Positions 31,157 to 57,501 of a stretch of 64,000 bases of DNA are shown piece by piece. A model generated the notes under the pieces. It saw only the letters and a program-made list of their open reading frames with translations. It searched no databases and was not told where the DNA came from. Every line of letters begins with the position of its first letter. The stretch's first letter is position 1. The stretch is from positions 1 to 64,000 of the IMG/VR virus record IMGVR_UViG_3300009164_000001; one strand, 5' to 3'. Source of the stretch: a virus. Made by a program: the position numbers and the translations under genes.

Positions 31157-34100
31157 TTATATCGATTGTTTAGCTGTAGTATTTCTTTTAGTAGACAAAT
31201 CACCTAGACGAGATGTGTATTTTCTACCCATTCCACCAAATCTTTTCTCCTCTTTGTCATCTGCTAAAACTTGTACTACTTTATATCCTAAGTCAGAAGC
31301 AATTTGCTGAAGCTCTCCTTCTGATTTTTGGTACACAGGGCTTTCTGGATTCTTAGCTTGCTTTCTTAATTGCTCCATTATCTCGTAACGGTTAAGTGAT
31401 CCAGTTTTATCCAGACCTCTTGCAATTCTGTATTGCATATCAAGCTTACGTTGGTCCATTGACATTCCTGCAAGGCCTTTACCAAGAGCTTCTGCAACCC
31501 CTAAGTTACGTTCATCCATGTATTGGTTCTGATTGATATCAGCCATCATGTTTGACTTACTTGCTTCAAGTTGTGCAGCTTGGTTTCTTCCAGCAACTTC
31601 AGCAGCTATCTGTGCTTCTGAGTTTTTAATTGCTCTGTTTTCTTGATCTTGTCTTTGAGATATTTTAGCAATTTCATCAGCTGTTTTAGTTGCTACACTT
31701 TGCATGGCAATGATTTTACCAGGACCTAAGTTTGTATTCTTTAGGTAGGTATTCATAGCATTTTGTTGACGACGTGCATCTTCAATTTCTCCTGACTTAT
31801 CTACTCTTGCAAGACTTGGGGCAGTTACAGATTGAGCTGCAGCCATGCCAGCAGTCTTTTTATAAGGCTTAAGCATTGCATAAGCAGGCCCTGCTAACTG
31901 TGCTAAACCTCCAAGAAATCCAGGGTGCTCTTCTAACCAAGTCTTACTTAGATCTAATTTTCTTTCTGGATCTTTAGGAAGGTTTCCTGGCTCTCCATTA
32001 TCTTGAGGTCTAAAGTTATAATCTAAAAGCTCTTGCTTTAACCCATCTTGAACTTTAAGATCTGTTTTTGTAGAAACAGGAAATGGTATAGGCTGATTTG
32101 TTTTAGGATCTCTAATATAATCTCCAGTCTGGGCATCCATTCTATATTCAACAAGTTGGCCATTTAGCATAAATCCGGTGCTAGGCTCATTTGTAGGACC
32201 CGTTGGAAGATCGTAATTTTCCATCCCCGTATAATCTTTGAAATCTTTATATGATGATTTCTTTTTAGGATCTTTCTTTTTGCCACCTCCAGCATATTCT
32301 TGCATGCCACCAGTTCTAGCAATCTGTTTAGGATCACGGCCTGCTTGCTCTTCTTGCTGACGAGCTAAGTCTTTTATGATATTTTTTTTAGAAATAGGGT
32401 CTAAAGACGGATTAGAAGCAATAGCTTTATGTGCTTGAGAATACGGTTCTCCTTTTGGAGTTTTTAATACACGAGAGAAGAAGTATTGGTTTCCGTTAAT
32501 TTTAGTTCCAGTTTCTTTATCTTCTACTTCAGTATATTTATCAAGCTTAATTCCTCCTTCTTCATGGGTATTTCCTAAATACTCAACATCATTAGAGTTT
32601 GGGATAGGTTTAATCTTTCCACCTTCTGCATAACGAGTTCCTCCAAGGTCGTTGTAAGATCCTCCAAACTCATAGCAATTAGGATCCATCATTCCACCAT
32701 CAGCATGGCTGTTTACTTGTTGACAATGTTTGTTTAATTGTCTTTGAAAAAAATCTGCACCTGTCTGTCTTTTGCTGTGGTCACCTCCATAGTTAGCTTT
32801 ACCTTTTTTAGTAAATAAACCACGAAGACCTCCACCACCTCCACCAGAACTTTGCTCTTCTTCAACAGGCCTTTCTTGTCTAAAGCCTAAGTCTTGATCT
32901 CCTTCCATTAAGTTGTTGTTCCAGTCATTTAACATTCGAGTTCCTGGACGTTTAGGATCTGACTGATAATGGTCAAAGAAAGTTCCAGGCTCTTTTCCTG
33001 CATCCACACGACGCTGCTCTGCTGGAGAAAGAGGCATTTGTGGATAAGGAATTCTATCTTGAAGTGTATGAGGATCAGCAGAATCAATGTCTACTCTACG
33101 GGCTTTTGCCCAATCCATATTGTACTGCTGTTTCTTTTGCTGGTACTCTTTTCTAGCATTTCTTCTAGCACTTTGCTCATCAAACGAATTGTACATTTCC
33201 CCAGAAGCTTTGTCTTCCTCAGGGGCAACAGCAGGAGTAGTAAAGTAGTTAAATTGTGGAGTGGCTTGAGCTACTGGATCACATGCCCCTGTTGCAGGAT
33301 TGTATGTAGTTCCTGGAGGACATTCTGATCCACCCATAGCATATCTTTTCATACCACCGTTACGAGCCATTTGATTTCCTCCTCTATAGGAGTCCATCAT
33401 TTTGCTGTTAATGAAAGAATTATTAACTGCAGACATTTGATCTGTATCAGCCATAGCAAGTTTACCTGCTTCTTCTGTTGATGCTTTGTTATCTTTTATA
33501 GTGTCGTAAATTCCATAACCAAGTCCAGCAACTGCTCCTGCTAATGTTCCATATGGGCCTGCTACTGAACCGTAGCTTGCACCTTTTCCAACACTTGCCA
33601 TGATGTTACCTACACCATAATGGTTTCTTTCTTTTTTTGTAAAAGTAGCAGCGTTGTTATCACTACCAGTATTTTTAATTATTTCTCCACCAATATTTAA
33701 AGCTGCTGCTACAGGCTGTCCGTAAGAACTTACTCCTGCCATAAATGAGCCTGCAGTATTTGCAGCATTAACAGCAGTTGATCCAACACTAGCTCCAGTA
33801 GATGCAAGATCTACTCCTGCCTCTCCAGCCATTGCTGCATTTGTACCAAACTCTTTAGCTGCAGTACTAGCTACTGTTTTTGTAGCTGCGGCAGCTGCTT
33901 GTTTAGCAGCTCTTTCTGCAAAAATATCTTTACCAGTGCTAAGTGCAAGTTTACCCAGCTCCATACCAGATTGTTTAACAACATCTTGTTGCTGCTTTTT
34001 TTGGTCTTCATTAAGTTTTTTTAACTCGTCTTGAGTTTCTTTTAATGATTGTAAAGCAACGTTTTGATTTTTACCTGCCTCATCTGCTGCAGATTGCCCT

Positions 34101-34222
34101 AGGTAATATGAAGCCTGTGGAGCTTGTGAAACTCCACTTAGGTTATATCCAGCTAAAGAGTACTTCTTAACTTTCTTTAGTGCAGGTTTTTGTTGTTGTC
34201 TACTAATTAGTTTTTTGGCCAT
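31157..34222 (-). CDS. cargo/ejection protein (crAss cargo-1-like) with xxGG repeats
   Basis: 1021 aa; directly downstream of the muzzle; Gly/Ala hydrophobic helices, G.THEEGG...EVE..E motif, multiple [YFM]xxGG motifs. Confidence 0.65.
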   Translation of the reverse strand: MAKKLISRQQQKPALKKVKKYSLAGYNLSGVSQAPQASYYLGQSAADEAGKNQNVALQSLKETQDELKKLNEDQKKQQQDVVKQSGMELGKLALSTGKDIFAERAAKQAAAAATKTVASTAAKEFGTNAAMAGEAGVDLASTGASVGSTAVNAANTAGSFMAGVSSYGQPVAAALNIGGEIIKNTGSDNNAATFTKKERNHYGVGNIMASVGKGASYGSVAGPYGTLAGAVAGLGYGIYDTIKDNKASTEEAGKLAMADTDQMSAVNNSFINSKMMDSYRGGNQMARNGGMKRYAMGGSECPPGTTYNPATGACDPVAQATPQFNYFTTPAVAPEEDKASGEMYNSFDEQSARRNARKEYQQKKQQYNMDWAKARRVDIDSADPHTLQDRIPYPQMPLSPAEQRRVDAGKEPGTFFDHYQSDPKRPGTRMLNDWNNNLMEGDQDLGFRQERPVEEEQSSGGGGGGLRGLFTKKGKANYGGDHSKRQTGADFFQRQLNKHCQQVNSHADGGMMDPNCYEFGGSYNDLGGTRYAEGGKIKPIPNSNDVEYLGNTHEEGGIKLDKYTEVEDKETGTKINGNQYFFSRVLKTPKGEPYSQAHKAIASNPSLDPISKKNIIKDLARQQEEQAGRDPKQIARTGGMQEYAGGGKKKDPKKKSSYKDFKDYTGMENYDLPTGPTNEPSTGFMLNGQLVEYRMDAQTGDYIRDPKTNQPIPFPVSTKTDLKVQDGLKQELLDYNFRPQDNGEPGNLPKDPERKLDLSKTWLEEHPGFLGGLAQLAGPAYAMLKPYKKTAGMAAAQSVTAPSLARVDKSGEIEDARRQQNAMNTYLKNTNLGPGKIIAMQSVATKTADEIAKISQRQDQENRAIKNSEAQIAAEVAGRNQAAQLEASKSNMMADINQNQYMDERNLGVAEALGKGLAGMSMDQRKLDMQYRIARGLDKTGSLNRYEIMEQLRKQAKNPESPVYQKSEGELQQIASDLGYKVVQVLADDKEEKRFGGMGRKYTSRLGDLSTKRNTTAKQSI

Positions 34223-34233
34223 AATCGTAAGGT

Positions 34234-37200
34234 TTATCTACTCGTAGTACGGTAGTTAGCTTTAGCTGTATACAAATTTATTAAATTTTGAGCTCGGTTG
34301 TTAGAAATTAATCGTATTCCTAAGAATTTATCTATGAACTTTCTTTGCTCATACCAAGGTTTGTTTGGCTCTAAGTAAGCAGTGTTTACTATTCCTTCTG
34401 ATGTAAACATAGGAATTATACCTCCAGGAGCATATGTTCCTGTGTAATAGTCACCGTTTACATTTACTTGGTTTTGAGCCAAAGTTGTATTAAAATTTAT
34501 TTTTGATAAATCTCTGAAGTCATTAAACACCCAGTTGTGATCAACTTTTCTAATGTTTTTAAGGTAAGTTAAATCTTTAACCCCTGAAATTTGCTCAGTA
34601 GTGTAAACATAGAAACTGGTGAATCCAGGATTTAAAGTTGAAGTTACTTTAGAGATGTTATTAGCATCTGCTTTATATGTTTCTAAAAAATAAGTGATAG
34701 CCGAATATAGTTTATTATCACTTTTAGTAGTTGAAACAGCCCCCGTTTTAGACGTAGATACATCCCCAGTAGATATAAATTCAAACTCAAAATTAGATAC
34801 AACACCATAAAAATTACCAGGATTAACATAATCATTATGTACATAAAACTTCGATGTAGGTAATGAATTAAAGCTGTACAGGTATTTAGTATTGAATGCA
34901 TAAAGTGGTGGTATATAAGAGTGTCTACTAGCCCAAGCACCTGTGTCTAAAGATAATGAAATTGTCCATCCCCCTTTTGTGAAATTAGTTCCTTCTATAA
35001 GAGGTATTGGCTCTCTTTTAATTTTATCTGTAACAAGTCCTCCAGTGATAACAATGGTTCCTAAAGTAAGTTGTGAATTAAAAGCATTTGTAGGGATAAG
35101 GTCTCGTTTAGTTATGATAATTCTTTTTAACAATGGATCGTAACTAACAAGGTATCCAAAGTTATTTGTTGGGGCATCTAGGTTTATTCCAGCAAGAGAT
35201 GCTCCGTAGTTTTGTAAAGCAAATGGTACATTCTCTCTAGCCCAAGTTGATAATCCAAGGTCAGTTAAATCTTGTACTTTGTCTGTAATTAAGAAGATTT
35301 TTCTAGAGTTTCTAGATATAAACACATACCCATCTTTGGTTACTAAGGCTCCCATTTTATTGGTTAATCCCATGTACCCATCTGTAGATTGCACGAATTC
35401 ATCAGGTTCTTGTGCAAATAAGTCACCTGAACCAATGTATGCTTGAGATGCATCAGCTAACTCAAGGTTTTGTTTACCTTTTGTTTTGAACAAACTCTTT
35501 TCAGTATGAATGTAAATTAATGCATTCAAGTTGAAGATGTTTGTAATAGATCCTTTGTTTTGCCCAAAGTCTTTAAGATCAATTGCTAAGAAATAACGAT
35601 ATGAATCTGTAAAGTTACCGTCTTGAATTATTGATCTGATTACACGGTTAGGAAACAAGTTAGTAGATTTGTCTTTCTTTGGGTAAGGTATTGCTACTCT
35701 AATATCTTGTAAAGCAGAATAGTGTTCTTCGTAAAGTAAGTTTTCTTTTTTAGTAAGGTCATGTACAGGAGATCTCCACAATACATCTGTAGCAGTGTAC
35801 TTATCAAAGTACATACTATCAGCTGTGCTTACTCCTTTTTCTGTATCCCCACAATAACGGAAATTGATATTGTCATCAGATTCTATTATAATTTGATGTA
35901 AAATTGCATGAGGATCCCAATAAGCATTATCATCACCTAACCAGTTATTGTTATCAAGAATATCTGAATTGCTAGTATTAATTTGTTGATCAAGTGGTAC
36001 ATAAGAAAAAGTAGAATTAATGTTATCATCAACAATATTATCATCAAGAGAATTAGTAAATTCTGCGTAAAATGGTTCTTTTTGATTTCCAACTTCTTGT
36101 TTAAAATATCTAAATCCATATGCTTGAGACGTTAATCTATAAGCATATCTACATATGTAAGTATCTCCTCCAAAAATGTCAGGAGTACGTACTCCAGTAT
36201 AGTAATTACCTATTGTTGGATCATCTCCTGTAGTGATATTAACTTGTAATGTAGATTTATAGAATCCAGTCCACACTAATCTTTGAGCATCAAATGGTTC
36301 AAATACGTCTGTTTTTGTTGAACACAAATTTGCTATGTATATGTTTGGTCTTGAATATTGTCTAGTAGCCGAGTAATAAGGATTAACTTTTTTTAAAATT
36401 GAAGCATCTTCTCCAATATAAGGATATTTACCTGTACCATGTAAAGGTGGAATTCCCGATTTCAAACCAAGCACAATTGAGCTTTCTCCACTTAGATTTA
36501 ATAAGTATGTTGCTCCTTTAAATGCAGTTGAAGAACTGTTTTTAAGAATTGATAATCCTGCTAAATAACTTGCACTGTCTGGATCTAATGGAAATATAGT
36601 TTGATTTGCTCCTAAAAATGACTGGTTACCGTCGGCTGCTCCAACAGCTACTCCAAAATCTACTCCAGTAGTTCCAGGCATATTATATTGTGCTGCAACC
36701 ATTAAAAGTCCAAAAGCATTTGAAGTTCCATAAACAGGAGTGTCATCTGCATCATAATTATCTGTGTTTCCCAAAGTAGAACTTATCCATTGGTACTCTG
36801 TTTCTCCACTTCTAAATTGAGTAAAACTCCAACTACTATCTACTGCTGGTGGGTCCCCGGCATTCATGTACCCAGGTTGAATTCCTTTGTGCCTTCCTCT
36901 CCATTGTTGCATTGTTGCAACATATTGCAAATCTATATGAGTTGCTTGCCCTAAACTTTTTTGAGTTCTAAGTAAATTAAAGTCATGAAATTTAAATACT
37001 GATTGAGCTACTACGTTTTCGTTAGGTGTACTTGCCCAAGGATAGGCTGCATAAGCAAACGACTCCGTGTGAGGCAAAGCATCCATATACCATAAATGAT
37101 AATATGGACCAAATTTAGCATCATCTATTTTATTAAATAAATTTCCTGATTTAATCCATTTAGCTGGATGAAGCCCACTTTGTCCTATTATTGTCTTATC

Positions 37201-39087
37201 ACCTTGGTTTCTTTTTGCATAATACACTTTATATCCTTGTACTTGCTGAAGAATGAATTTAGGAATTTTTAAATTTGCTAATTTAAATCCTAGTATTCTA
37301 GTAGTTTCCTTAAATGTTGTTTTAGAAATATTTGAAATTTGTGCAGAAGTTAAAGGTGGGTTTGAAAAATTTGTATTAGTAACTAATGTAGAAAACGAAG
37401 GATTATGGTTAGAAGGCATTTTGTGGTGCCTAACTTTTGTGTTTCTTATAGTTTCTGTGTATACAGGTGTACCAGACCCATCTACACTAAATACATCAAA
37501 GTCTGGAGAATCTGGATAAGTTTCATTTTTGTTTTCCCAATATCCAGTTGTCTGACTTACATGCAAGCTTGTATCTAAATACTGATACATTGCTCCATTT
37601 GGATCTGTTTGTAAAAATTCTGCAGGGTTAAATCCTGAAACATCAACATTATTTAGAGAACCGTTTTCCCAAGATTTAACTACATTACGTCCAGGAATAT
37701 GATATGCATAACTTTCTGTACCATCTTTAAATATAAATGATATATAGAACGAGTATACTTCTCCTCTTCTGTAACTTTTTTCTTTAAACAATCTGTTTAT
37801 ATTTCTATATCCTCTGTCTTTCCCATTTTGCAATGGGTAAGTTATTTGAGAAATATAATTATAATCTACTGGAAAAGGATAGTTTAAATCTTGAGAAACT
37901 GCTGCATACCCATAATTAATATTGTATAGATCATAACTTCTAGGATCAAATTCTACAATATCTTTTGTAATGGCTTGCAACTGTATTCCGTTAGCAAATC
38001 TTTGAAATCCTAGGTCTTTTCTTCCAGTTAAGTTTGCAGCATACATTCTATTATCTAACTGTGCAATAGATTTTGCACTGAGATAATTGACTTTATCTAA
38101 TACTGCATCTTCTACAGTAGCTTTATCTACTTGTTCTAAACCACTATATGTAATGCTTATAGTTGTAGTTTTAATTTCTACAAACTCAAGTTTGTACACA
38201 AATTGAACATCTCCTATTTTTTGAAGTACATATGGTACAACGTATGTGTAGTCAATGTTTAAATTTGTTAAATCCCATTTGATAGATTTGTTTGTTTCAA
38301 CTCCACCTGGAGCTCCTCCAATCATTTCAAATGGAATATAGTTTTCTGAAGATGGGTGTACATATACTGGATTAGCCATCCCTAAAACATTAGTTTCAGT
38401 AAAGTCTTTATCTGCATATGCCACTGCTAAATAGTAAGCACCTGTTACAACTCCACCACCTTCTACTATAGATGCGGCATTAAATTCAGGAATTCTTCCA
38501 GAATCCATAAACATGTTAAGCATGGTTATATTCTGACCTGTAGATGTGTATAATTTGTTTGAGGTGCCTCCAGAAGCTAAGAAAGTCTGCTGTCTTGTAA
38601 CATTAAATACTCGTGGAGGATTATAGTACTCCGGGTATTCAATTTTAGTTACAGGCTCTACTGTGAACTTGTATTTGTTATCTGTGAAGTATATAATGAT
38701 TTCTCCTGTAGGAGAAACTCTAAATTCTCCCGTAATAGGGTTATCTATATCAAAATTTAAATGGCCAGTTGCTTCTCCAGTAGTTGTTGTAAGTAAAGCA
38801 AGTAAAATGTTTGTTGAAGTATTTACATAAAAAATACTTGAAGTAGATGTTGGAGTACCAGCTTTGTTAGCAAAAATTATAAAGTTGTCATCAGGAAGAG
38901 CAATCTGGCCGACAGGTAAAAATCCTGTTGGGAGATTTGCCACAAGTTTGTTTCCAAATTCATTGCTAATAGCTCCTTTATTAATGTCCACTACAGCATT
39001 AAGTGCATCTCTATATGTACCGTCGACCTGATCTGAAAGACCAGTATCTTTGTTCATCCCCTTTAAAAACTTTAATTCTGATGCCAT
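34234..39087 (-). CDS. tail muzzle / stabilization protein
   Basis: 1617 aa, beta-rich; N-terminal KGMNKD...YRDALN...NE.GN; YRRGEVY.F; GGDTYI; W.S.HSY.P; position after a ring protein. Confidence 0.75.
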   Translation of the reverse strand: MASELKFLKGMNKDTGLSDQVDGTYRDALNAVVDINKGAISNEFGNKLVANLPTGFLPVGQIALPDDNFIIFANKAGTPTSTSSIFYVNTSTNILLALLTTTTGEATGHLNFDIDNPITGEFRVSPTGEIIIYFTDNKYKFTVEPVTKIEYPEYYNPPRVFNVTRQQTFLASGGTSNKLYTSTGQNITMLNMFMDSGRIPEFNAASIVEGGGVVTGAYYLAVAYADKDFTETNVLGMANPVYVHPSSENYIPFEMIGGAPGGVETNKSIKWDLTNLNIDYTYVVPYVLQKIGDVQFVYKLEFVEIKTTTISITYSGLEQVDKATVEDAVLDKVNYLSAKSIAQLDNRMYAANLTGRKDLGFQRFANGIQLQAITKDIVEFDPRSYDLYNINYGYAAVSQDLNYPFPVDYNYISQITYPLQNGKDRGYRNINRLFKEKSYRRGEVYSFYISFIFKDGTESYAYHIPGRNVVKSWENGSLNNVDVSGFNPAEFLQTDPNGAMYQYLDTSLHVSQTTGYWENKNETYPDSPDFDVFSVDGSGTPVYTETIRNTKVRHHKMPSNHNPSFSTLVTNTNFSNPPLTSAQISNISKTTFKETTRILGFKLANLKIPKFILQQVQGYKVYYAKRNQGDKTIIGQSGLHPAKWIKSGNLFNKIDDAKFGPYYHLWYMDALPHTESFAYAAYPWASTPNENVVAQSVFKFHDFNLLRTQKSLGQATHIDLQYVATMQQWRGRHKGIQPGYMNAGDPPAVDSSWSFTQFRSGETEYQWISSTLGNTDNYDADDTPVYGTSNAFGLLMVAAQYNMPGTTGVDFGVAVGAADGNQSFLGANQTIFPLDPDSASYLAGLSILKNSSSTAFKGATYLLNLSGESSIVLGLKSGIPPLHGTGKYPYIGEDASILKKVNPYYSATRQYSRPNIYIANLCSTKTDVFEPFDAQRLVWTGFYKSTLQVNITTGDDPTIGNYYTGVRTPDIFGGDTYICRYAYRLTSQAYGFRYFKQEVGNQKEPFYAEFTNSLDDNIVDDNINSTFSYVPLDQQINTSNSDILDNNNWLGDDNAYWDPHAILHQIIIESDDNINFRYCGDTEKGVSTADSMYFDKYTATDVLWRSPVHDLTKKENLLYEEHYSALQDIRVAIPYPKKDKSTNLFPNRVIRSIIQDGNFTDSYRYFLAIDLKDFGQNKGSITNIFNLNALIYIHTEKSLFKTKGKQNLELADASQAYIGSGDLFAQEPDEFVQSTDGYMGLTNKMGALVTKDGYVFISRNSRKIFLITDKVQDLTDLGLSTWARENVPFALQNYGASLAGINLDAPTNNFGYLVSYDPLLKRIIITKRDLIPTNAFNSQLTLGTIVITGGLVTDKIKREPIPLIEGTNFTKGGWTISLSLDTGAWASRHSYIPPLYAFNTKYLYSFNSLPTSKFYVHNDYVNPGNFYGVVSNFEFEFISTGDVSTSKTGAVSTTKSDNKLYSAITYFLETYKADANNISKVTSTLNPGFTSFYVYTTEQISGVKDLTYLKNIRKVDHNWVFNDFRDLSKINFNTTLAQNQVNVNGDYYTGTYAPGGIIPMFTSEGIVNTAYLEPNKPWYEQRKFIDKFLGIRLISNNRAQNLINLYTAKANYRTTSR

Positions 39088-39097
39088 AATTTTAGTA

Positions 39098-41867: not shown

Positions 41868-41872
41868 AGTCA

Positions 41873-41880
41873 CAAAGTTA
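41873..41880 (-). promoter_or_regulatory. Bacteroidota -7 element TAACTTTG
   Basis: TAnnTTTG 5 nt upstream of the ATG at 41867. Confidence 0.55.
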
Positions 41881-50057: not shown

Positions 50058-51485
50058 TTACGATGCTACACATTGTAGATCTAAGCTGGTATCGAAACGA
50101 CGAAGTAAGATACCTGCAGTCTTCAACATGTGAACAGAAGCACCGTCAATATCACTTGCACGTGCATCAGTTCCAGTGAATCCTTTCGGAACAACTGAAC
50201 CTGCAACACACCAACGAAGTAACTCACGACCTTTCTTGTTGATCATTTGAAGGTTGTTTTCACCATCATAAGTAGATTGGTCAACAAATACCATACGGTA
50301 AGACTCCATAGGAAGACCAGAAACTGGATGCTTCTTAGAAGCTTGAGCAACTGGACCGTGATCAAACAAGTGAGATTTAACTACGTTCACAGAATAACCA
50401 TCAACGTGGTCATAGCTAGTGAAGTAACCAGTGATTCCCAAATTACGACCTGATCCAGTGATGAATTTAGGTTGAGTAGTTTGTAAGAATGGGCTACCAG
50501 AGTAGTATGTACGAAGAGCTTTGTCAAACTCACGAGCTCCACCGATACCAGTGTAAAGGGTAACTTGCTTGTCTGTAGCATCAGTCATACCATAGAACAA
50601 ATCTCCAATTGTTTCTTCAAGTTTAGTTTGAGTCAACGTAGAGTAAGTGTCTTTGTTGATGATTTGCTCAAGAAGACCAGGACCTGAAACAACTGGTTGG
50701 CCATTCTCATCCAACATGGTAGAAGCACCATTTGCATCGTGAGTTTTAGCTCCGTACCAGTAGTACATTTCACACTCTTCTTTGAACTTCAACATGTGAC
50801 GGTACTCTTCGTAATCCATCCACAACTTAGTTTTGCTACCTTCTTTCAAAGGAAGTTCGAATTGTGCAACATAATCTTTAGCATTTCCAGAGAAGTGGTA
50901 AGATTTACGGATAGTTCCAATCTTAGAACGAACTAAACCTGGAGCAGTCCAGTTAGAAGCATTTCCACGAGAGAAATCGATACCTACGTTAGCATACAAT
51001 TGACCCCAAAGAGCACCAGCAGCAATATCTCCACCAGCTGATGCAGACAATGCAGCAGTTTGATCAGGTGAAACACATTTCAAAGTGTATCTCCAACCAG
51101 CTCCATCAGGAACAGGCTCATCCATGATACGTGCCAACACACCTGATTGAGAAACCAATGTGTAAGGGAATACGAACCATTTGTCTGGGAAAGTTAATTG
51201 AAACGGTGCACCAGATGCTCCAGTACCGACATTAGCAATAACTGGACGAACATTAATTTCGTGTGTTTTAACACGGTACTCATACTCAAAACGATCGATA
51301 GATTTAGTGTTTCCAACACCTTCTGTTAAGAAAGACAATGGGAACTTTTTCTCTTCACGACCTGCTAAGTGAGTAATAATAGGAGATAACTCCTCTGGAC
51401 GTTCCATAAGTGCATTAACCAACGAGTTAGTGTCGGTCATTTGTGCATCGTTATAGTACGTTTTTAATACTTGCATTACTGACAT
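50058..51485 (-). CDS. major capsid protein
   Basis: 475 aa; G.GLLEQI and TG.GG..EF motifs; biased codon usage; follows the scaffold-like gene; own terminator. Confidence 0.88.
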   Translation of the reverse strand: MSVMQVLKTYYNDAQMTDTNSLVNALMERPEELSPIITHLAGREEKKFPLSFLTEGVGNTKSIDRFEYEYRVKTHEINVRPVIANVGTGASGAPFQLTFPDKWFVFPYTLVSQSGVLARIMDEPVPDGAGWRYTLKCVSPDQTAALSASAGGDIAAGALWGQLYANVGIDFSRGNASNWTAPGLVRSKIGTIRKSYHFSGNAKDYVAQFELPLKEGSKTKLWMDYEEYRHMLKFKEECEMYYWYGAKTHDANGASTMLDENGQPVVSGPGLLEQIINKDTYSTLTQTKLEETIGDLFYGMTDATDKQVTLYTGIGGAREFDKALRTYYSGSPFLQTTQPKFITGSGRNLGITGYFTSYDHVDGYSVNVVKSHLFDHGPVAQASKKHPVSGLPMESYRMVFVDQSTYDGENNLQMINKKGRELLRWCVAGSVVPKGFTGTDARASDIDGASVHMLKTAGILLRRFDTSLDLQCVAS

Positions 51486-51515: not shown

Positions 51516-52634
51516 TTATTCAAACAGCCTCTTTATATCCAGGTTATCTGGGTTAAATTTCTTATTTCCTCCTTTTTCTACTTTGCCCATGTTCTTCACA
51601 CGTTCTTGGTGTCCTTGGATTCTATCTCTTAGACCTTTAGCACTAACTGTTTTAGCTTTAGTGTTAATTATGTCTTCAAGTTTCAAACCCTTGTACATTA
51701 AGTAGTCCAAGGCTAATTTTACATCTATATTAGATTGAGCATAGTCCATATCTCTTTTTGTTTGGCCATTTTTGTTAGCTGGTGCAGAGATGTAGTCGAA
51801 GAATTTTGCTTTTTCACGATCAGGAATTCTGATACCAGCAAATTCATTTCCACTATCTATACGGCCAGCTACGTCCTCCCAAAATTCTTGTTGACGTTGT
51901 GCTTCTAATTGTTGTTGTTGACGTTGTTGTTGAACTAGTTCTCCTCTTTCTCTTTCTTGAATAGCCCCTAATTGCTTTTTAGCATGTTGGGCTTTATCGT
52001 AAAGTTTTCCAGAGTCTTCAAACTCTTCAAGCATCTCTTTGATAAACTCATTGTCATGGCCTTTGCTTTTGAAAAACTCTGCTACAATTCCTTTTTGAGT
52101 TCTTGTATCACTTGCATCAATTTCAATTCTGTTGAAATCTAATGCAGGATTGTAAGCATCGAAGAATTTTTCAGGATCCCCACCAGCCATTACAAAATCA
52201 AGATGTTTTTGTACTAGTGGGAACTGCTCAAATAATTCTTGCAGTTGTTCCTCGGCAATGTTCTGAGCAATGTCTTTTGTGAATTCAATTAAGCCTTCCT
52301 CTGTGTCTGCATATTCAGCATCCAATTCGTAGCCTAAAGCTTTTGCAATTGTATCTGCTACAGACCCAATAGAGTCGTCTTCATCTTCATCATCAAAATC
52401 ACCTTCGTCATCGTTATCGTCATTTACTGACTTATACTTTTGTCCAGGTTCATCATCAGAGTCATCATCATCAGGAAGATTTGGATCTTCATCCTCGTCC
52501 TCCTCAGGATCGTCTTCTAAATTGTCAATGTTTTTATCAGAATCCTCTTTAGGATCTGAGGGTGTCAGTCCGTCTCCTATCATGTCGTCGAAAGAGATGT
52601 CTGAGAAGTTAAGTTTTTGTTCTGGTTTACTCAT
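51516..52634 (-). CDS. acidic scaffold-like protein
   Basis: D/E-rich N-terminus and coiled-coil C-terminus; directly upstream of MCP. Confidence 0.65.
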   Translation of the reverse strand: MSKPEQKLNFSDISFDDMIGDGLTPSDPKEDSDKNIDNLEDDPEEDEDEDPNLPDDDDSDDEPGQKYKSVNDDNDDEGDFDDEDEDDSIGSVADTIAKALGYELDAEYADTEEGLIEFTKDIAQNIAEEQLQELFEQFPLVQKHLDFVMAGGDPEKFFDAYNPALDFNRIEIDASDTRTQKGIVAEFFKSKGHDNEFIKEMLEEFEDSGKLYDKAQHAKKQLGAIQERERGELVQQQRQQQQLEAQRQQEFWEDVAGRIDSGNEFAGIRIPDREKAKFFDYISAPANKNGQTKRDMDYAQSNIDVKLALDYLMYKGLKLEDIINTKAKTVSAKGLRDRIQGHQERVKNMGKVEKGGNKKFNPDNLDIKRLFE

Positions 52635-52638
52635 ATAA

Positions 52639-52646: not shown

Positions 52647-52712
52647 TTGGTTTACTTTTAATCTTAAAGTATAAATTTATCTTTTATACTTTTACTTATT
52701 GTATAGCACTTG

Positions 52713-55292
52713 CTATAATTTTAGCTTAGCAAATTTTGAAGAAACTTTTGATTTAAGTCCTCCTTTTTTGAAGTAATAGTCAGCATTTACACCATTAGTA
52801 TTACCTGAGAATCTGTTAACTCCAGGGTCTTGCCAAGATTGTTCTGATCTTGGACCAGTTGTAGAGTTTGCATTAAGCATGTTTTTATTCATCCCTCCTT
52901 CTGCATATCCAGCAGAAGTTTTTCTTTTAAATGGTTCCTCTGGTTTAGGGGCTCCTTTAATAAATCCTTTCAAGCTTCTTCTAGTTTTAGTCTCAACACT
53001 GTTATAGTCTCCCTCATCGTACATGTCTTGTTTAATGACATAGTTTTGGTCACTACTTTTAGTTCTAGTGCTAAGTTCTTTAGTACGTTTTCCAGGATCT
53101 TCAAAACCACCCATAGCTTTTTTCTCCCTCTCTATTTCTTCTTGTGCTTTTTTTAATTTTGCTTTTTGTTTATCTTTTAACTGTTGCTCGTATTGTTCTT
53201 GAGCAGTTTTTTCTGTTTCCACTTGAGTCATTTCTTTTTGTAGGCTAGCATCACTTTTTGTTTTTAATCCTCTTTCACTTTCAACAATCTGAAGAGGTTC
53301 TTGCACATTAGAATATATTTTAGCTTTAGGATTATATTTTACAGATTTGCTTCCCCCTTTTGAACTAAAAAATTCATTTTCCTCTTCAGGAGTCATCCAG
53401 TCTCTAGTTAAAGTAGATCCTACTAGTTCTTGTTTAACAACATTTCCATTTTTATCACGAATTGTTTTGTGGACATAGGCAACACCTCCACCATTACCTG
53501 TTTGCTGCAGTGTATAAGATTCTTGTGGAAGTTGGCTTTCAATTTTAACAGGGGCAGATTTTGATTCAATTGGTTTCATTCCAATAGGTTCCATTGGTTC
53601 CCCAGCTGTTTCAAGAACATGGTGTTCCTGTGGGGCTGGGTAATATCCTATAGGATACCCCATTGGGTCATAATTTATATTACTATTAGCAACATTTTTA
53701 TAAAAATCATCATGCCAATTTGGTCCGTAACTACCTTTGTTAAAGTAACTTTGCACATAAACTTCTCCTGGAGTTTTACTTGGCCAAACTAGTCCACCAT
53801 TGGTAGGTTTAATTTCTTTTCCAGTAGCACTATTTACTGGTTTTTTTCTATTTTCTTTGGTTGTTGTTCCTGCAATAGCTATTTTTTTTTGAAAATCTTC
53901 TAATATTTCAGGAGGCATTACTACTGGTTTACTTCGTATCTGTGGATAAATTTTTAAATAGTTTATAAGGTCTTTTGATGCCTGGTGGGCAAATGAACTA
54001 TCTGCCTCTGCACCACTTGCTATTTGAAATTCTCTAGGATCAGTATGGTAAACAATCCTAGGGTTAGTTACAAAGTAATTAGGAGGAAAAGCTTGATTAG
54101 TAGATTTTTTAGCAGGTTCTTTCTTTTTAGATGGTCCTCCATTTTCATATTTGTATCCACCATAACGAGCTGCTTGAGGAAGACCGTAATCTTCTGTGTT
54201 TGTTTTGTTTTCTGCTACAGCATTGTGAGTAATTAGAAATCTTTTAACTGCGTCTCTTTTAGCTTGATTGTATTGTTCAAGTTCATCACCAGTAAGATCT
54301 TCAATATTTTTTCCATTTACAAATTTAGAAGATCCTGTAGGATAACCAATAGCTTGATAGAATCTTGTCATTTGCCCTTCTTCTGCACTTTCTTTATTAA
54401 AAAGCCCAGATTTACCTTTAGTTCTACCTGATTCTAAAATATCATACATTTCATCTTCAGTGTAGTTTTTTGTAGCATCTAAATTAAGGGCTTTTCTAGC
54501 AGTTTGTAGACTGGTGTAATATTCTTCTGGGTCTGCATAATAAGCTCCCATGCTTTTATCGACATCTTTGTATCCCATGCTATTTACTAAATCTGGAGTA
54601 ATAGTGTTTCCAAGTATTTCCATACCTGCAGCATGAGTGTTATTAGGAATTTGTCCAGCTATGTTTGAACCAATATGGTTAAGTTCCTCATAAGCTACAT
54701 AAGGCCTTGCTCCTTCTAGCCCTCTATAATACACAGAATTTGTATTTAAATAATCTTTTTCTCCAGCTTCATTTATTGTTTTCATGTACCCTTTTTCTAA
54801 TTTAGGAGAAGAGTAAGGATTGTTTTTTAAAGCTTCGTCTGCAGCATCTTGGATATTACCTGTTTGAATATTATCAAAAAGAGCAGGTGTAGCAGCAGTT
54901 GCTAAACTAGGTGCTTTTCCACCAAGGTAGTTTGTTTTATTATAAGCTTCTTCTGTAAAATATTGAGCTGGTGCAGAGTTCCTAAACGTATTTAAAAATA
55001 CATTTGATGTGTCTGTAAATTGTGGAAGTTGTTTTCTTTTTTCAAACCAATCATTTCCCCAAGATCTAGCTTCAGAGTCAGCTTTGTCAAAAACTTCTTT
55101 ATTAGCTTTATAATATTCTGGAAAAAATTGATCTTTTGCTGGGCCTCCTGTAGTTGTAATTGGATTTTCAGGATCTATTAAATTTTGCAGATCAAGATTT
55201 GCAGGACCACCTACAGCAAACTTACGGGTAACATTTGCTTTAAGGCTTTTTGCCTTAGCTATTGCTGTATTTTTTGATAATTTCTTAGCCAT
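52713..55292 (-). CDS. modular xxGG-repeat protein with degenerate zincin-like module
   Basis: Likely start ATG 55292 (MAKKLSK); FAVGG, ARYGG, YENGG, KAMGG, YAEGG, FKKGG; YEELNH...YYADPEE. Confidence 0.7.
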   Translation of the reverse strand: MAKKLSKNTAIAKAKSLKANVTRKFAVGGPANLDLQNLIDPENPITTTGGPAKDQFFPEYYKANKEVFDKADSEARSWGNDWFEKRKQLPQFTDTSNVFLNTFRNSAPAQYFTEEAYNKTNYLGGKAPSLATAATPALFDNIQTGNIQDAADEALKNNPYSSPKLEKGYMKTINEAGEKDYLNTNSVYYRGLEGARPYVAYEELNHIGSNIAGQIPNNTHAAGMEILGNTITPDLVNSMGYKDVDKSMGAYYADPEEYYTSLQTARKALNLDATKNYTEDEMYDILESGRTKGKSGLFNKESAEEGQMTRFYQAIGYPTGSSKFVNGKNIEDLTGDELEQYNQAKRDAVKRFLITHNAVAENKTNTEDYGLPQAARYGGYKYENGGPSKKKEPAKKSTNQAFPPNYFVTNPRIVYHTDPREFQIASGAEADSSFAHQASKDLINYLKIYPQIRSKPVVMPPEILEDFQKKIAIAGTTTKENRKKPVNSATGKEIKPTNGGLVWPSKTPGEVYVQSYFNKGSYGPNWHDDFYKNVANSNINYDPMGYPIGYYPAPQEHHVLETAGEPMEPIGMKPIESKSAPVKIESQLPQESYTLQQTGNGGGVAYVHKTIRDKNGNVVKQELVGSTLTRDWMTPEEENEFFSSKGGSKSVKYNPKAKIYSNVQEPLQIVESERGLKTKSDASLQKEMTQVETEKTAQEQYEQQLKDKQKAKLKKAQEEIEREKKAMGGFEDPGKRTKELSTRTKSSDQNYVIKQDMYDEGDYNSVETKTRRSLKGFIKGAPKPEEPFKRKTSAGYAEGGMNKNMLNANSTTGPRSEQSWQDPGVNRFSGNTNGVNADYYFKKGGLKSKVSSKFAKLKL

Positions 55293-55293
55293 G

Positions 55294-57501
55294 TTATCTT
55301 CTTTTTTTAAGTAGTTTTTTACCACCAGTAGCAAATTTAAATGATTGTTTAGCTTCGTTTTCTCTTCTTCTTTTTAATTGAATATTTTGTATGGCTGTTT
55401 CTTTTTGTTCATTTCTAAGTTTTTCAACTTCTTGAGTAGCATCATACATATCGTGATAAATCATGTGATCTGGGTCTTTATCTCTAGGATCGTAATCTAT
55501 TCTACTAGACATATCGTTATTGTCAAACTTTTTTTGATCTGCATCATTAAGCCAATCTTTAGCTAAAGATGGTCCTACTACTTTTTGAGTGTATGTTCCA
55601 TCATCATTATAGGTTCTTCCATGAATTACTCCAACTCCTGGGTTTCCACTAGGCATTAAAAAATATTCTGTTTTAGGTTTTGCAGGATAGGGGTTTGACA
55701 TTCTTGGTATATTTTGCAATTGTGGTTGCAAGTCTATTTTTGGAACAGGTAGTAATCCAGGCTCTTTCATTTTAGGTTGAGGTACTGGATTTTTTAAATC
55801 TTGAATACCTTGTTTAACACTTGCTTTATTTTTATAAGGAGTCCCACTTCCTCCGTATTGCTGAAGTCTTTTTAATTTTTCTGCATCTGAAAGGTCTTTC
55901 CACGGAGTTACTGCAAGCTTGTCATAACTAACAACTTCTGCAGCATCTCCATCTAGATATACTGTATATTTTTGAGGCAAGATTCTATCATCATATCTTG
56001 ATCTAGGAGCGTTTGGATTTAAAACTCCTGTAGTTAATTCTCTTTGCTCAAATCTGTGATTTCCTGGTGTATAATTTGTATATTCATCGTAAGACATGCT
56101 ACTATTAGGGTATCTTTTGTAATCTTCTCTAGTATTTTTAAGTTTTGTAAATATATCGTTTATATTACCAAGTGGTGGTTGTCCTTCATACAGTGTTGAA
56201 ATTTCTGCAGGGCTTAGAGATCTATATCCATCTTTTATGTAAAAATTATGTACTTCATTAGCTCTATCAGCTACATAACTTGAATCAGCTGCAGTAGCTA
56301 TGTTTGCTTTTTTAAGTGGGTCACCTTCTAGCCCTCCTGTTTCAAATTTAAAATGAGTTTTTCTTAGTTCAGGATTAGACAGCATTTCTATTGTACCTGT
56401 ACCTGTATTTGTAGGTGATGGTGAAGGCGGTGAAAAATAATCTGAAAATGTTTGACTAATTCCTGCTATTTTATTTGCTAAATCAATGTTTTTTAAAACT
56501 TTTACAGCTTTATTTCCAAGTCTTAATCCCGTTGCAACTTTTCCCCCTAAGACTGGGATAGCACTCATCATGTTTAAATAATCATCATAACTACCTTTTC
56601 CTTCTTTTACATTTTTATATCCTAAAGCAGCATCATTCCATGAAGATATTCCCGTTGGGTCAATTAATTCTATACCGTCTTCTATAGGGCTATCCCAATC
56701 TGCTGAAAGATCTCCCCCAATCCTTCCTGAAGGCATTTGTTTTGGGTAAAATTTACCGTTAGTGCTTAAACCTTTTTTTAAATAATCTATTTTAGAATTT
56801 TCTACAGTTGGGCCAGGATTTAAAAATGGGGGCCTAAATCCGGGATCTGGGTTATCTTCTCCCCATGTAGGAACTGGAGCATTTCTTTTAGCTACAATTT
56901 CAACAGTAGGTAAAGTATATGATGGAGGATCTTTTTTCATCCCCCCTACTGCATACTTTAATCCCCCAAATACATATTTTTTAGGATTTACCATTGTAAG
57001 GTCAGGGTGTTCTATTGTTGCATTGTGTGCAATAGACCCACGTTGTTCCTTAGAGAAAGGAAAGTGAGAGCTAAATTTATTATACTGGTCTTCTGTAAAC
57101 TTTTCTACAAATCCTCCTGTAGCCATTAGCACTTGCCCACCTGAAGATCCTTTTGCATTAGTTGCCATCCCAACAGGTTGTTGTTGAGTTGAATCTACTA
57201 AGTTAGGATTAGCTGGAGGTTGTGGACCTGGAAGACTTTGACCTTGAAGCCCCGGAGGTGGTCCTGCAGGAGCTTGGGGCATTTCCTGTGGAAGAGGTTG
57301 TTGCCCAGGAGGCATCATCCCAGCTTGTTGTGCAGCCATGTCAGACATTTGCTGACCTTGTTGTTGTTGCTGTTGCTGTTGGTATTCCCCAATTATATCT
57401 TTACCTTGCTCGTAAGCAGTAAACACATCCAAGATACTTCCTGGAAAGCCTGATTGACGAGCCTTAGATAAAAGCTCTCTTCGAGTTTGGTTATCCAACA
57501 T
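55294..57501 (-). CDS. modular xxGG-repeat protein with Q/P-rich N-terminus
   Basis: 735 aa; MATGG, YVFGG, YAVGG, FETGG, FATGG; poly-Q tract. Confidence 0.7.
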   Translation of the reverse strand: MLDNQTRRELLSKARQSGFPGSILDVFTAYEQGKDIIGEYQQQQQQQQGQQMSDMAAQQAGMMPPGQQPLPQEMPQAPAGPPPGLQGQSLPGPQPPANPNLVDSTQQQPVGMATNAKGSSGGQVLMATGGFVEKFTEDQYNKFSSHFPFSKEQRGSIAHNATIEHPDLTMVNPKKYVFGGLKYAVGGMKKDPPSYTLPTVEIVAKRNAPVPTWGEDNPDPGFRPPFLNPGPTVENSKIDYLKKGLSTNGKFYPKQMPSGRIGGDLSADWDSPIEDGIELIDPTGISSWNDAALGYKNVKEGKGSYDDYLNMMSAIPVLGGKVATGLRLGNKAVKVLKNIDLANKIAGISQTFSDYFSPPSPSPTNTGTGTIEMLSNPELRKTHFKFETGGLEGDPLKKANIATAADSSYVADRANEVHNFYIKDGYRSLSPAEISTLYEGQPPLGNINDIFTKLKNTREDYKRYPNSSMSYDEYTNYTPGNHRFEQRELTTGVLNPNAPRSRYDDRILPQKYTVYLDGDAAEVVSYDKLAVTPWKDLSDAEKLKRLQQYGGSGTPYKNKASVKQGIQDLKNPVPQPKMKEPGLLPVPKIDLQPQLQNIPRMSNPYPAKPKTEYFLMPSGNPGVGVIHGRTYNDDGTYTQKVVGPSLAKDWLNDADQKKFDNNDMSSRIDYDPRDKDPDHMIYHDMYDATQEVEKLRNEQKETAIQNIQLKRRRENEAKQSFKFATGGKKLLKKRR

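What the first reader, a model, noticed from the sequence alone, without database searches (positions are those of the whole stretch)
31157..57501. Four late proteins punctuated by a shared [YFM]xxGG motif: candidate polyprotein or capsid-cargo 'address' system
Seen in sequence: four ORFs carry 5-10 copies each of a short di-Gly motif, usually preceded by Lys/Arg and an aromatic or Met residue. 735 aa ORF: MATGG, YVFGG, YAVGG, FETGG, FATGG. ORF 52713-55292: FAVGG, ARYGG, YENGG, KAMGG, YAEGG, FKKGG. 293 aa ORF: YKKGG, YMMGG, YKTGG, YEDGG, KMMGG, YKKGG, KKMGG. 1021 aa cargo ORF: ARNGG, YAMGG, HADGG, YEFGG, YAEGG, ARTGG, YAGGG, KRFGG. The motifs sit at the borders of otherwise unrelated modules and are often followed by a short basic/DP linker (GGMKKDP, GGGKKKDP, GGFEDP, GGLEGDP, GGQKPGDP). 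All four proteins end with a GG motif plus a short basic tail. Inference: the motif is either a cleavage site (di-Gly, as in ubiquitin-like or viral polyprotein processing) that releases separate effector modules, or a repeated docking signal that loads cargo into the head. Either way it would form a plug-in cassette for delivering variable effectors at infection.
Basis: partly seen in the sequence, partly recalled or inferred. Interest (0 to 1): 0.85.

Follow-up and report, generated by a model that had tools for sequence, protein, structure and literature searches.

The report
Gly-Gly seam motif in crassvirus cargo
Four proteins that this uncultured crAss-like phage probably carries inside its particle are chains of swappable modules joined by one short peptide (aromatic/Met-x-x-Gly-Gly); the same peptide lies where phage T5 cuts its tail ruler protein and where lambda probably does, so it is most likely a cutting site, but no cut has been shown here.

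Summary
The window is the first 64 kb of an 83.6-kb crAss-like phage with terminal repeats. [YFM]xxGG occurs 19 times in the four ORFs (2,922 aa) and 11 times in the other 23,580 aa, a 14-fold higher density. All listed motifs, DP linkers and GG-plus-basic tails are present.

- **Conservation:** homologues keep the motif. Nine GG pairs are invariant in 16 ORF1021 relatives at 42-89% identity.
- **Module borders:** similarity between relatives breaks off at the motifs. 45-52% of internal breakpoints lie within 8 residues of one, against 9-10% by chance.
- **Level of selection:** codons vary freely, so selection acts on the peptide.
- **Structure:** in the ORF735 model the motifs lie in low-confidence segments beside confident domains.
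- **Relatives:** they carry other modules in the same slot, such as glucosaminidase and DUF192.

Function is unproven. I favour limited proteolysis (0.4). T5 pb2 is cut at R|AEGG. Lambda gpH carries FATGG/YATGG where gpH* is made. The resolved pieces of crAss001 gp45 begin at such motifs. TP901-1 Tal is cut at a Gly-rich junction. Docking without cutting (0.3) remains open. No protease was found.

The scan has noted the same kind of motif in other phage genomes. I found no description of it in the papers I searched.

The parts
55294..57501 (-). ORF735, the variable-slot protein after portal and DUF5856. It has a conserved N-terminal helical anchor (aa 1-55), a Q/P-rich linker, and modules bounded by MATGG 126, YVFGG 176, YAVGG 183, FETGG 386 and FATGG 723. 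It ends in the tail KKLLKKRR.
   Evidence: sequence; 30 homologues with mosaic coverage. HSPs break at aa 192, 384 and 599; the AF2 model is confident for aa 1-55 and 400-550, and all motifs lie in segments with pLDDT below 50.
52713..55292 (-). ORF859 (873 aa if read from the TTG at 55334). It has a basic leader MAKKLSKNTAIAKAKSLKANVTRKFAVGG, modules bounded by ARYGG/YENGG, KAMGG and YAEGG, and the tail FKKGGLKSKVSSKFAKLKL.
   Evidence: it shares a paralogous module with ORF735 (23% identity over 191 aa, E 9e-7). P0019 is a relative with the same leader and tail but carrying ORF735's module.
40503..41384 (-). ORF293, a Lys-rich and mostly disordered protein between the Ring 2 and Ring 1 genes. 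It has 7-8 motif copies, several in tandem at 7-residue spacing, and the tail KKMGGKMC.
   Evidence: relatives are 200-391 aa long with 4-9 motifs; the Atlas model has pLDDT 0.55 and pTM 0.20.
31157..34222 (-). ORF1021, at the position of crAss001 cargo protein C1 (after the muzzle-like gene). In order it has a basic leader with invariant KKYSLAGYN, a coiled coil, a glycine zipper, ARNGG-YAMGG, a variable insert, a conserved His/Glu domain, ARTGG-YAGGG, a hypervariable insert, a conserved C-terminal domain, and KRFGG plus a tail.
   Evidence: alignment A1 has 9 invariant GG pairs, and hypervariable inserts start right after aa 298 and 647. BLAST to gp45 gives 21% identity over 593 aa, E 3e-8, without composition correction; hhalign finds only the glycine zipper (70%).
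32273..32680 (-). Conserved domain of ORF1021 (aa about 515-650), flanked by motifs on both sides. H553, E565, E567, E570 and H598 are invariant.
   Evidence: 208 clusters at E<=1e-3 among 1.84 billion representatives; hits are flanked upstream by ..[QTK]xGG..LPGG and downstream by ..LGGxxKYxxGG; invariant columns; no Pfam family.
57337..57501 (-). N-terminal three-helix domain of ORF735 (aa 1-55). It is the only part shared by all slot proteins and is a candidate virion anchor.
   Evidence: pLDDT 80-84; the sequence M.N.TRR.LL..AR..G.PGSIL is conserved in all relatives.
55852..56304 (-). Confidently folded module of ORF735 (aa 400-550). It starts about 10 residues after FETGGLEGDP.
   Evidence: pLDDT 73-90; no fold match.
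57938..60154 (-). Portal protein (context).
   Evidence: phrog_6547, E 7.7e-121.
51516..52634 (-). Scaffold-like protein with an extremely acidic N-terminal arm and a coiled coil, just upstream of the MCP gene (context).
   Evidence: sequence; phrog_16294, function unknown.
50058..51485 (-). Major capsid protein of crassvirus type (context).
   Evidence: PF23898, E 6e-78.
34234..39087 (-). Muzzle-position structural protein, 1617 aa (context). Ring 1 lies at 39098-39991 and Ring 2 at 41892-42599.
   Evidence: phrog_15100, E 6e-65. PF24228 E 2e-58 and PF25702 E 6e-33.
13607..13621 (-). HEFGH in the 1578-aa giant protein (aa 286-290). A second HExxH, HEAYH, lies at 21662-21676 in the 2497-aa giant. 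These are the only protease-like motifs in the genome.
   Evidence: No family support. About 0.6 HExxH are expected by chance in this proteome (my estimate).

Best explanation
The four genes encode internal (cargo or ejection) proteins of a crAss-like podophage, built as beads on a string. Short basic leaders and tails and unrelated modules are joined by a conserved peptide. Its consensus is [KR]-[YFM]-[AEK]-x-G-G-[FLMPV], and it lies in flexible linkers.

The peptide is most likely a recognition site for limited proteolysis, during particle maturation or after ejection. Cutting would trim the basic end peptides and free the modules.

By analogy with T5, the cut would fall just upstream of x-x-G-G, after the aromatic or basic residue, rather than after the second Gly. 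The enzyme is unknown. Candidates are a host peptidase, the HExxH regions of the giant virion proteins, or the conserved His/Glu domain that sits next to the motifs in ORF1021.

Shown: the motif, its enrichment, its conservation, peptide-level selection, its place at module borders, and module exchange.

Inferred: the virion location, any cutting, and the register of the cut.
For: In this phage and its relatives:
1. Enrichment and conservation are real.
2. Selection acts on the peptide, because Gly and flanking codons vary freely.
3. The motifs lie at module borders. Of 85 internal HSP ends of ORF735, 45% lie within 8 aa of a motif, against 9% at random. For ORF1021 the figures are 52% of 27 against 10%.
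4. Inserts begin right after YAMGG 298 and YAxGG 647.
5. In the AF2 model of ORF735, motifs lie in low-confidence linkers, and a confident module starts about 10 residues after FETGG.
6. The ends look like propeptides. Basic leaders of about 20-30 aa stop at a motif (ORF859, ORF1021, crAss001 gp45 MAKKKIKRRGKMPPNIFDTGG). In 96 of 143 diverse relatives a motif lies in the first 45 aa. All four proteins end in a motif plus a basic tail.

Precedents I checked:
7. T5 pb2 is cut after R1127 by mass spectrometry (PMC10038345), and the sequence reads FVPR|AEGGMM.
8. Lambda gpH carries KFHFATGGF at 729-738 and GYATGGY in its C-terminal part. The expected count of [FY]ATGG is 0.003 and 2 are observed. 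FATGG is the commonest form in ORF735 relatives.
9. Lambda gpH residues 1-732 weigh 79.6 kDa, against about 78 kDa reported for gpH*. The paper says it is unknown how the cleavage is catalysed.
10. The 20-aa leader of P22 gp7 is removed by host OpdA just before KGGKGG.
11. TP901-1 Tal is processed at a Gly-rich junction in front of its lytic domain, and Gly-to-Arg changes block this (PMC11409707).
12. In crAss001 gp45, the portal-bound piece (aa 425-552) starts at A425 of NAFGG and ends before FAYGG 559-563. The tail-bound helix (aa 214-245) follows SAYGG 206-210. The two pieces lie on opposite sides of the portal, 420 Å apart.
Against: - No cut has been observed in this phage or in any crassvirus.
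- No protease family was found in nearly all ORFs of 120 aa or more (Pfam; PHROGs for the structural module and the giant proteins). The two HExxH motifs have no family support.
- The authors of the crAss001 structure treat gp45 as one chain. Their model runs uncut through two internal GG pairs (QGG 434-435, EGG 447-448). Virion gel bands at 85 and 100 kDa could be full-length gp45.
- The mapped cuts differ in register and in the residue before the cut: T5 R|AEGG, P22 E|KGG.
- The lambda site is not mapped.
- ORF1021 does not match the gp45 domain family PF25725.
- A conserved junction peptide could equally be a binding site.
Confidence: 0.4

Rival explanations
1. Docking or packing signal without cleavage. 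Each motif, an aromatic or Met anchor with basic neighbours and a Gly-Gly turn, binds a site inside the particle, such as the portal wing, the tail rings, the scaffold or the DNA. Cargo is loaded and held in order in this way. Tandem copies add avidity, and the modules stay joined.
For: - In crAss001 the piece that starts at AFGG is bound to the portal wing, and the helix after SAYGG is bound to the tail rings.
- Motifs often come in tandem at 7-residue spacing: KKYVFGGLKYAVGG, ARNGGMKRYAMGG, KLGGVMKYQTGG.
- All four proteins end in a motif plus a basic tail, and the neighbouring scaffold-like protein has a very acidic arm.
- Short targeting peptides are known. The N-terminal signal of P1 DarB can carry a foreign protein into the capsid (PMC9024508). 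From my own knowledge, T4 has a capsid-targeting sequence and encapsulins have cargo-loading peptides.
Against: - The giant proteins and the 771-aa protein at the C2 position, which must also be packaged, are not enriched.
- The motif sits at nearly every module border rather than at one end.
- No partner was found.
- It does not explain the mapped T5 cut at such a motif.
Confidence: 0.3
2. Passive joint. The motif is only a favoured flexible hinge between modules, useful for stepwise unfolding through the portal and tail channel. It persists because modules are copied together with their flanks when they recombine.
For: - The motifs lie in disordered linkers.
- Modules move together with a flanking motif. 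For example, P0002 has an extra module inserted between KFATGG and the KLLKKRK tail.
Against: - A plain hinge does not need a conserved aromatic or Met at -3, a basic residue at -4 and a hydrophobic residue at +1.
- The GG pairs are invariant at 42% identity while the flanks diverge.
- There is no shared DNA sequence to guide recombination.
- The same pentapeptide, FATGG, recurs in lambda gpH, which is otherwise unrelated.
Confidence: 0.15
3. Self-processing. The conserved His/Glu domain next to the motifs (ORF1021 aa 515-650; analogous regions follow the motif in T5 pb2C and lambda gpHC) is itself the peptidase that cuts at the motifs, first at its own border and then in the other cargo proteins.
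For: - The domain is always flanked by motifs.
- It has invariant H553, E565, E567, E570 and H598.
- T5 is cut exactly in front of a region with GEHGTEVV, which the authors call a metallopeptidase motif with muralytic activity.
- Lambda has GIVHRGEFVF after FATGG.
- No protease is known for either cut.
Against: - The domain has no family or fold assignment, and the AF2 model of this region is poor.
- The resemblance to the T5 and lambda regions is by eye only.
- The T5 domain is described as a cell-wall hydrolase, not a protein-processing enzyme.
- This genome has only one copy of the domain.
Confidence: 0.1

Closest known systems
Polyvalent proteins of phages and conjugative elements, with zincin-like metallopeptidase hubs (Iyer, Burroughs, Anand, de Souza, Aravind 2017, PMC5512222)
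   Same: Large virion-delivered proteins made of many unrelated, shuffled modules. Processing into separate domains is predicted. HExxH regions are present in the same virion gene set.
   Different: - That paper names no junction or cut-site motif ('linker' occurs 0 times).
- Here the modules are mostly of unknown function.
- The HExxH motifs are in other proteins and match no family.
Phage T5 tape measure protein pb2, matured into pb2* and pb2C (Linares et al. 2023, PMC10038345)
   Same: - A mapped cut lies at ...FVPR|AEGGMM, a [KR]-A-x-G-G site.
- The cut lies between a hydrophobic Gly-rich stretch and an enzymatic module.
- Both fragments stay in the virion.
- ORF1021 has ARNGG, ARTGG and RYAEGG sites in a comparable layout.
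   Different: - T5 has a long tail and its protein is a tape measure.
- It has one site, not many.
- It has Arg rather than an aromatic at -3.
- No sequence family is shared.
Lambda gpH, cut into gpH* and gpHC (Tsui and Hendrix 1983; PMC12617516)
   Same: - FATGG and YATGG are identical to the consensus of the ORF735 family.
- They lie after a glycine zipper, in the region where the cut occurs.
- The fragment mass fits a cut at F732/A733.
   Different: - The cut site has never been mapped and the enzyme is unknown.
- The motifs lie outside PF09718, which covers aa 627-701.
Cargo protein 1 (gp45) of Bacteroides phage crAss001 (Bayfield et al. 2023, PMC10172136; Pfam PF25725 crAss_CARG1)
   Same: - Same gene position after the muzzle gene.
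- A basic leader ending in IFDTGG, a glycine zipper, a GG-rich middle part with SHEE (ORF1021 has THEE), and a KAKGG-plus-basic tail.
- The resolved pieces are bounded by A[FY]GG motifs.
   Different: - The aromatic residue is at -1 in gp45 (AFGG, AYGG) and at -3 here.
- ORF1021 does not match PF25725, and hhalign finds only the glycine zipper.
- gp45 is described as one uncut chain.
Tail-associated lysin Tal of lactococcal phages TP901-1 and Tuc2009 (Stockdale et al. 2013, as cited in PMC11409707)
   Same: - A Gly-rich junction (NGGGNSGGGD) lies in front of a cell-wall-degrading module and is cut in part of the virions.
- Gly-to-Arg changes block the cut.
   Different: - The Tal site is a pure Gly/Ser/Asn run without the aromatic and basic flank.
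- Tal is an external tail-tip protein of a Gram-positive siphophage.
Head-protease maturation codes: T4 gp21 (L/I-x-E) with capsid-targeting sequences, and phiKZ/SPN3US (x-x-E). Gly-Gly codes of adenovirus protease ((M/L/I)-x-G-G|x) and ASFV pS273R. From my own knowledge and PMC10052503.
   Same: A short motif recurs in many internal proteins. It trims leaders and separates polyprotein parts inside the particle.
   Different: - No prohead protease or clan-CE cysteine protease was found here.
- The hydrophobic residue is one position further from GG than in the adenovirus code.
- Pro often follows GG.

Membership tests
Crassvirales virion (context of the finding) | Crassvirus MCP, portal, terminase and ring proteins in conserved order | tested here: met
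   PF23898 E 6e-78. Portal and TerL PHROGs at E 1e-120. Ring 1 and Ring 2 Pfam families. Muzzle-position protein phrog_15100.
Crassvirus cargo protein 1 (PF25725 crAss_CARG1) | Match to the portal-bound domain model | tested here: not met
   gp45 matches at E 2.3e-66. ORF1021 aa 505-660 has no match at E<=1. hhalign of A1 against gp45 finds only the glycine zipper.
Crassvirus cargo protein 1 (PF25725 crAss_CARG1) | Gene position after the muzzle gene; basic leader, glycine zipper, GG-rich centre, basic tail | tested here: met
   Gene order. Sequence features. BLAST gives 21% identity over 593 aa, E 3e-8, without composition correction.
Polyvalent proteins (Iyer et al. 2017) | Several unrelated domains in one polypeptide, shuffled between relatives | tested here: met
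   Mosaic coverage of homologues. Glucosaminidase, DUF192, CBM14, lysozyme and SLT modules in relatives.
Polyvalent proteins (Iyer et al. 2017) | Zincin-like metallopeptidase domain in the protein or system | tested here: inconclusive
   HExxH occurs in the 1578-aa and 2497-aa giants and in one relative's slot protein. No family match.
Polyvalent proteins (Iyer et al. 2017) | Packaged in the virion and delivered to the host | not testable with these tools
   Inferred only from gene position among the portal, MCP, ring and muzzle genes.
Lambda-type tape measure C-terminal region (PF09718 / TIGR01541) | Match to the family model | tested here: not met
   No Pfam match for the four ORFs or for ORF1021 aa 505-660. 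In gpH itself the model covers aa 627-701, upstream of FATGG.
Gly-Gly-directed polyprotein processing (adenovirus protease, ASFV pS273R, Ulp1-like clan CE) | Clan CE cysteine protease encoded by the virus | tested here: inconclusive
   No peptidase family in nearly all ORFs of 120 aa or more. HMM absence in very divergent proteins is not proof.
Gly-Gly-directed polyprotein processing (adenovirus protease, ASFV pS273R, Ulp1-like clan CE) | Site form: hydrophobic residue at P4, Gly-Gly at P2-P1, cut after the second Gly | tested here: not met
   The aromatic or Met residue would be at P5. Pro follows GG in about 14% of sites. The one mapped relative (T5) is cut three residues before the GG.
Prohead-protease maturation with targeting sequences (T4 gp21 and CTS; HK97-type) | Prohead protease gene near the portal, scaffold and MCP genes | tested here: inconclusive
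   None found by Pfam or PHROGs in the structural module.
Cargo-loading peptides (encapsulin CLP, P1 DarB signal) | Short terminal peptide that binds the shell or portal and is enough for loading | not testable with these tools

The most novel reading that the evidence does not exclude
Aromatic/basic-x-x-Gly-Gly is a widely shared maturation code of proteins that tailed phages eject. It would run from the tape measure proteins of lambda and T5 to the cargo proteins of crAss-like phages. The cut would fall just upstream of x-x-G-G, made either by the conserved His/Glu domain beside the motif or by a conserved host peptidase. Strings of effector modules would then be stored as one chain and released as separate proteins. 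This would also name the long-unmapped cut site of lambda gpH, at FATGG around residue 732.
Probability: 0.2. Interest if true: 0.85.

Novelty: new variant of a known kind. Interest (0 to 1): 0.6.

Why it matters
- Crassviruses are among the most abundant phages known, yet how their cargo proteins are loaded, stored and released is open.
- A defined junction peptide gives a concrete handle. It predicts where to look for new termini in virion proteomics. It could explain how pieces of crAss001 gp45 lie on both sides of the portal.
- It shows how these phages swap effector modules, such as cell-wall hydrolases and binding domains, without disturbing assembly.
- The identity with FATGG/YATGG of lambda gpH and with the mapped T5 site turns an old question into a simple mutational test in laboratory phages. 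That question is where, and by what, lambda gpH is cut.
- If the peptide proves to be a docking tag instead, it would be a portable signal for loading foreign proteins into phage particles.

Tried and rejected
**Rejected**
- DNA-level recombination linker: the 23 motif copies use all Gly codons and varied flanking codons.
- Chance or composition artefact: shuffles and the rest of the proteome rule it out.
- Cut directly after Gly-Gly by an adenain-like enzyme: judged less likely, given Pro after GG, the T5 register, and no such protease.

**Led nowhere**
- The four ORFs have no Pfam or PHROG family and no PDB relative by sequence.
- ORF735, ORF1021, the ORF1021 domain and a representative of its family have no tblastn match in 50,697 GenBank phage records.
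- The AF2 model of ORF1021 is poor (pLDDT 42), so the domain could not be compared with crAss001 gp45.
- Foldseek and VIA searches with the ORF735 model matched only a long helix.
- The Atlas search for ORF293 gave only leads below 0.9.
- The crAss001 gel and MALDI data and supplements do not say at what size gp45 runs.
- The papers on N4 and P1 virions gave no Gly-Gly sites.

**Not available**

Full report
**What the window is**

The window is bases 1-64000 of an 83,556-bp IMG/VR virus record with direct terminal repeats. The late genes lie on the minus strand in crassvirus order.
- Terminase is at 60232-62205 and the portal at 57938-60154 (PHROGs, E about 1e-120).
- A DUF5856 protein follows, then ORF735, ORF873/859, an acidic scaffold-like protein and the crassvirus MCP (PF23898, E 6e-78).
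- Further on lie Ring 2, a DUF6321 protein, ORF293, Ring 1 and a 1617-aa protein at the muzzle position.
- ORF1021 comes next, then a 771-aa protein and three giant proteins of 2272, 2497 and 1578 aa.

The MCP is only about 29% identical to that of cultured crassviruses. At least 595 IMG/VR stretches encode an MCP relative, and the 80 loci kept are 83-98% identical. This is an abundant uncultured lineage.

**The observation**

- [YFM]xxGG is 14 times denser in the four ORFs than in the other 77 ORFs of the genome: 19 in 2,922 aa against 11 in 23,580 aa.
- The form with a preceding Lys or Arg occurs 11 times inside and once outside.
- Shuffling each protein gives p between 0.02 and below 0.0002.
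- GG itself is doubled only in these four proteins. Given a GG, an aromatic or Met at -3 is 4.3 times more likely in them (p = 0.001).
- Capsid, portal, ring, muzzle-position and giant proteins are at background level.

**Conservation and level of selection**

Thirty homologues of ORF735 keep the motif.
- The commonest forms are FATGG (25 occurrences) and YVFGG (21).
- The consensus is [KR][FY][AE]xGG[FLM].
- They share three types of basic C-terminal tail.

In 16 relatives of ORF1021, at 42-89% identity, nine GG pairs are invariant. The segments right after YAMGG 298 and YAxGG 647 are hypervariable.

The 23 copies in the window use all four Gly codons and varied flanking codons. The peptide is what is conserved, not a stretch of DNA that could guide recombination.

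**Module borders**

BLAST alignments between ORF735 and its relatives stop and restart at aa 192, 384-385 and 599.
- Of 85 internal alignment ends, 45% lie within 8 residues of a motif, against 9% for random positions.
- For ORF1021 the figures are 52% of 27 against 10%.
- These ends are not independent, so I read this as a strong tendency rather than a test statistic.

Three cases show modules moving.
- P0005 lacks the aa 190-385 module, so its next module follows the motif at aa 187 directly.
- P0002 has an extra module inserted between KFATGG and the KLLKKRK tail.
- P0019 has the leader and tail of the ORF873 type but carries ORF735's aa 385-694 module right after its leader motif.

In near relatives the slot between DUF5856 and the scaffold-like gene holds one or two proteins of 235 to 1,048 aa. 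All have the same N-terminal 45 residues. Their modules include a glucosaminidase (PF01832), DUF192 and an HExxH region. ORF1021 relatives carry a chitin-binding module.

The AF2 model of ORF735 is confident for aa 1-55 and 400-550. It places every motif in a segment with pLDDT below 50. ORF293 is predicted to be disordered.

**A widespread flanked domain**

ORF1021 aa 505-660 finds 208 clusters at E<=1e-3 among 1.84 billion representatives. The hits are in proteins of 81 to 1,490 aa and at varied positions.

The domain is nearly always preceded by ..xGG..LPGG and followed by ..LGGxxKYxxGG. It has invariant His and Glu residues and no Pfam family.

Some members also carry lysozyme, SLT or glycine-zipper domains. 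That fits proteins that cross the envelope. Of 143 members that start with Met, 96 have a motif in the first 45 residues.

**Links to studied phages**

Earlier notes of this scan pointed to T5 and lambda, and I checked both.
- **T5.** pb2 is cut after R1127 by mass spectrometry (PMC10038345). The sequence there is FVPR|AEGGMMYPG. The cut lies three residues before the GG, between a hydrophobic Gly-rich stretch and the lytic module.
- **Lambda.** gpH has KFHFATGGFTGTGG at 729-743 and GYATGGY at 778-784. The expected count of [FY]ATGG is 0.003 and 2 are observed. Residues 1-732 weigh 79.6 kDa, close to the roughly 78 kDa reported for gpH*. The authors say it is unknown how the cleavage is catalysed.
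- **P22.** gp7 loses a 20-residue leader to host OpdA just before KGGKGG.
- **TP901-1.** Tal is cut at a Gly-rich junction before its lytic domain, and Gly-to-Arg changes block the cut.
- **crAss001.** gp45, the positional counterpart of ORF1021, has a leader ending in IFDTGG and a KAKGG tail. Its portal-bound piece (aa 425-552; PF25725 covers 424-555) begins at A425 of NAFGG and ends before FAYGG. Its tail-bound helix (aa 214-245) follows SAYGG.

The two gp45 pieces lie 420 Å apart on opposite sides of the portal. The authors bridge them with one chain per copy. Cutting at the motifs would be another way to explain this, but that is my inference.

Against a simple 'every GG is cut' reading, their model runs uncut through two internal GG pairs.

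**What cuts, if anything**

I found no peptidase family in nearly all ORFs of 120 aa or more. The only protease-like features are HExxH at aa 286 of the 1578-aa protein and at aa 105 of the 2497-aa protein.
- About 0.6 such motifs are expected by chance (my estimate).
- Zincin-like domains are, however, reported in this gene set of crAss-like phages and in polyvalent proteins generally.

**Verdict**

The 'module cassette' reading is supported by comparison with relatives. The choice between cutting and docking is not settled.

My odds are: cutting 0.4, with the cut probably just upstream of x-x-G-G; docking without cutting 0.3; a passive joint 0.15; self-processing by the neighbouring His/Glu domain 0.1. 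The last is a special case of cutting and is counted apart here.

The motif as a junction code is not in the papers I searched. The scan has met the same kind of motif in other phage genomes.

Noticed in passing
window 51516-52634 (-): A 372-aa protein just upstream of the MCP gene. Its N-terminal ~100 residues are very rich in Asp/Glu, a coiled coil follows, and it ends ...KVEKGGNKKFNPDNLDIKRLFE. It looks like a scaffold protein. Its acidic arm could pair with the basic leaders and tails of the GG proteins.
   Followed up: no
window 32273-32680 (-), ORF1021 aa 515-650: A conserved domain with invariant H553, E565, E567, E570 and H598. It is found in 208 protein clusters, has no Pfam family, and is always flanked by the motif. 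It may be an enzyme.
   Followed up: partly
window 42611-43768 (-): An SbcD-like DNA repair exonuclease / metallophosphatase (phrog_704, E 8.5e-62) sits in the middle of the structural gene block. This is an odd place for a DNA-metabolism gene.
   Followed up: no
window 21999-28817 and 14495-21988 (-): The 2272-aa giant has an exonuclease-like domain at aa 2019-2117 (phrog_298). The 2497-aa giant has GSDHDVDK at aa 1719, a candidate DxDxD site of the virion RNA polymerase. Neither matches a Pfam family.
   Followed up: partly
L084 (lambda gpH aa 705-716) and L085 (crAss001 gp45 aa 44-55): The glycine zippers are almost identical: SIGSAIGGAVGG in lambda gpH and SIGSIGGAVGG in crAss001 gp45. This suggests that crassvirus cargo protein 1 and tape measure C-terminal regions share a membrane-insertion layout.
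   Followed up: no
loci L008, L024, L028, L060, L076 (slot between DUF5856 and the scaffold-like gene): In phages with an 83-98% identical MCP, this slot holds proteins of 235, 371, 567, 638+493 or 1,048 aa. They share only the first ~45 residues and a basic tail, so this is a hot spot of module turnover.
   Followed up: yes
window 41607-41873 (-) and 40503-41384 (-): An 88-aa DUF6321 protein lies next to ORF293. The N-terminus of ORF293 (KRKDGSYSKRGLWDNIRKNKGSGK) is a small module common in uncultured phage proteins, function unknown.
   Followed up: no
P0037 aa 302-319 (relative of ORF1021): A chitin-binding peritrophin-A (CBM14) match (E 1e-5) lies in the variable insert right after YAMGG. 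The window's own protein has a Cys-containing PPGTTYNPATGACDP segment at that place.
   Followed up: no
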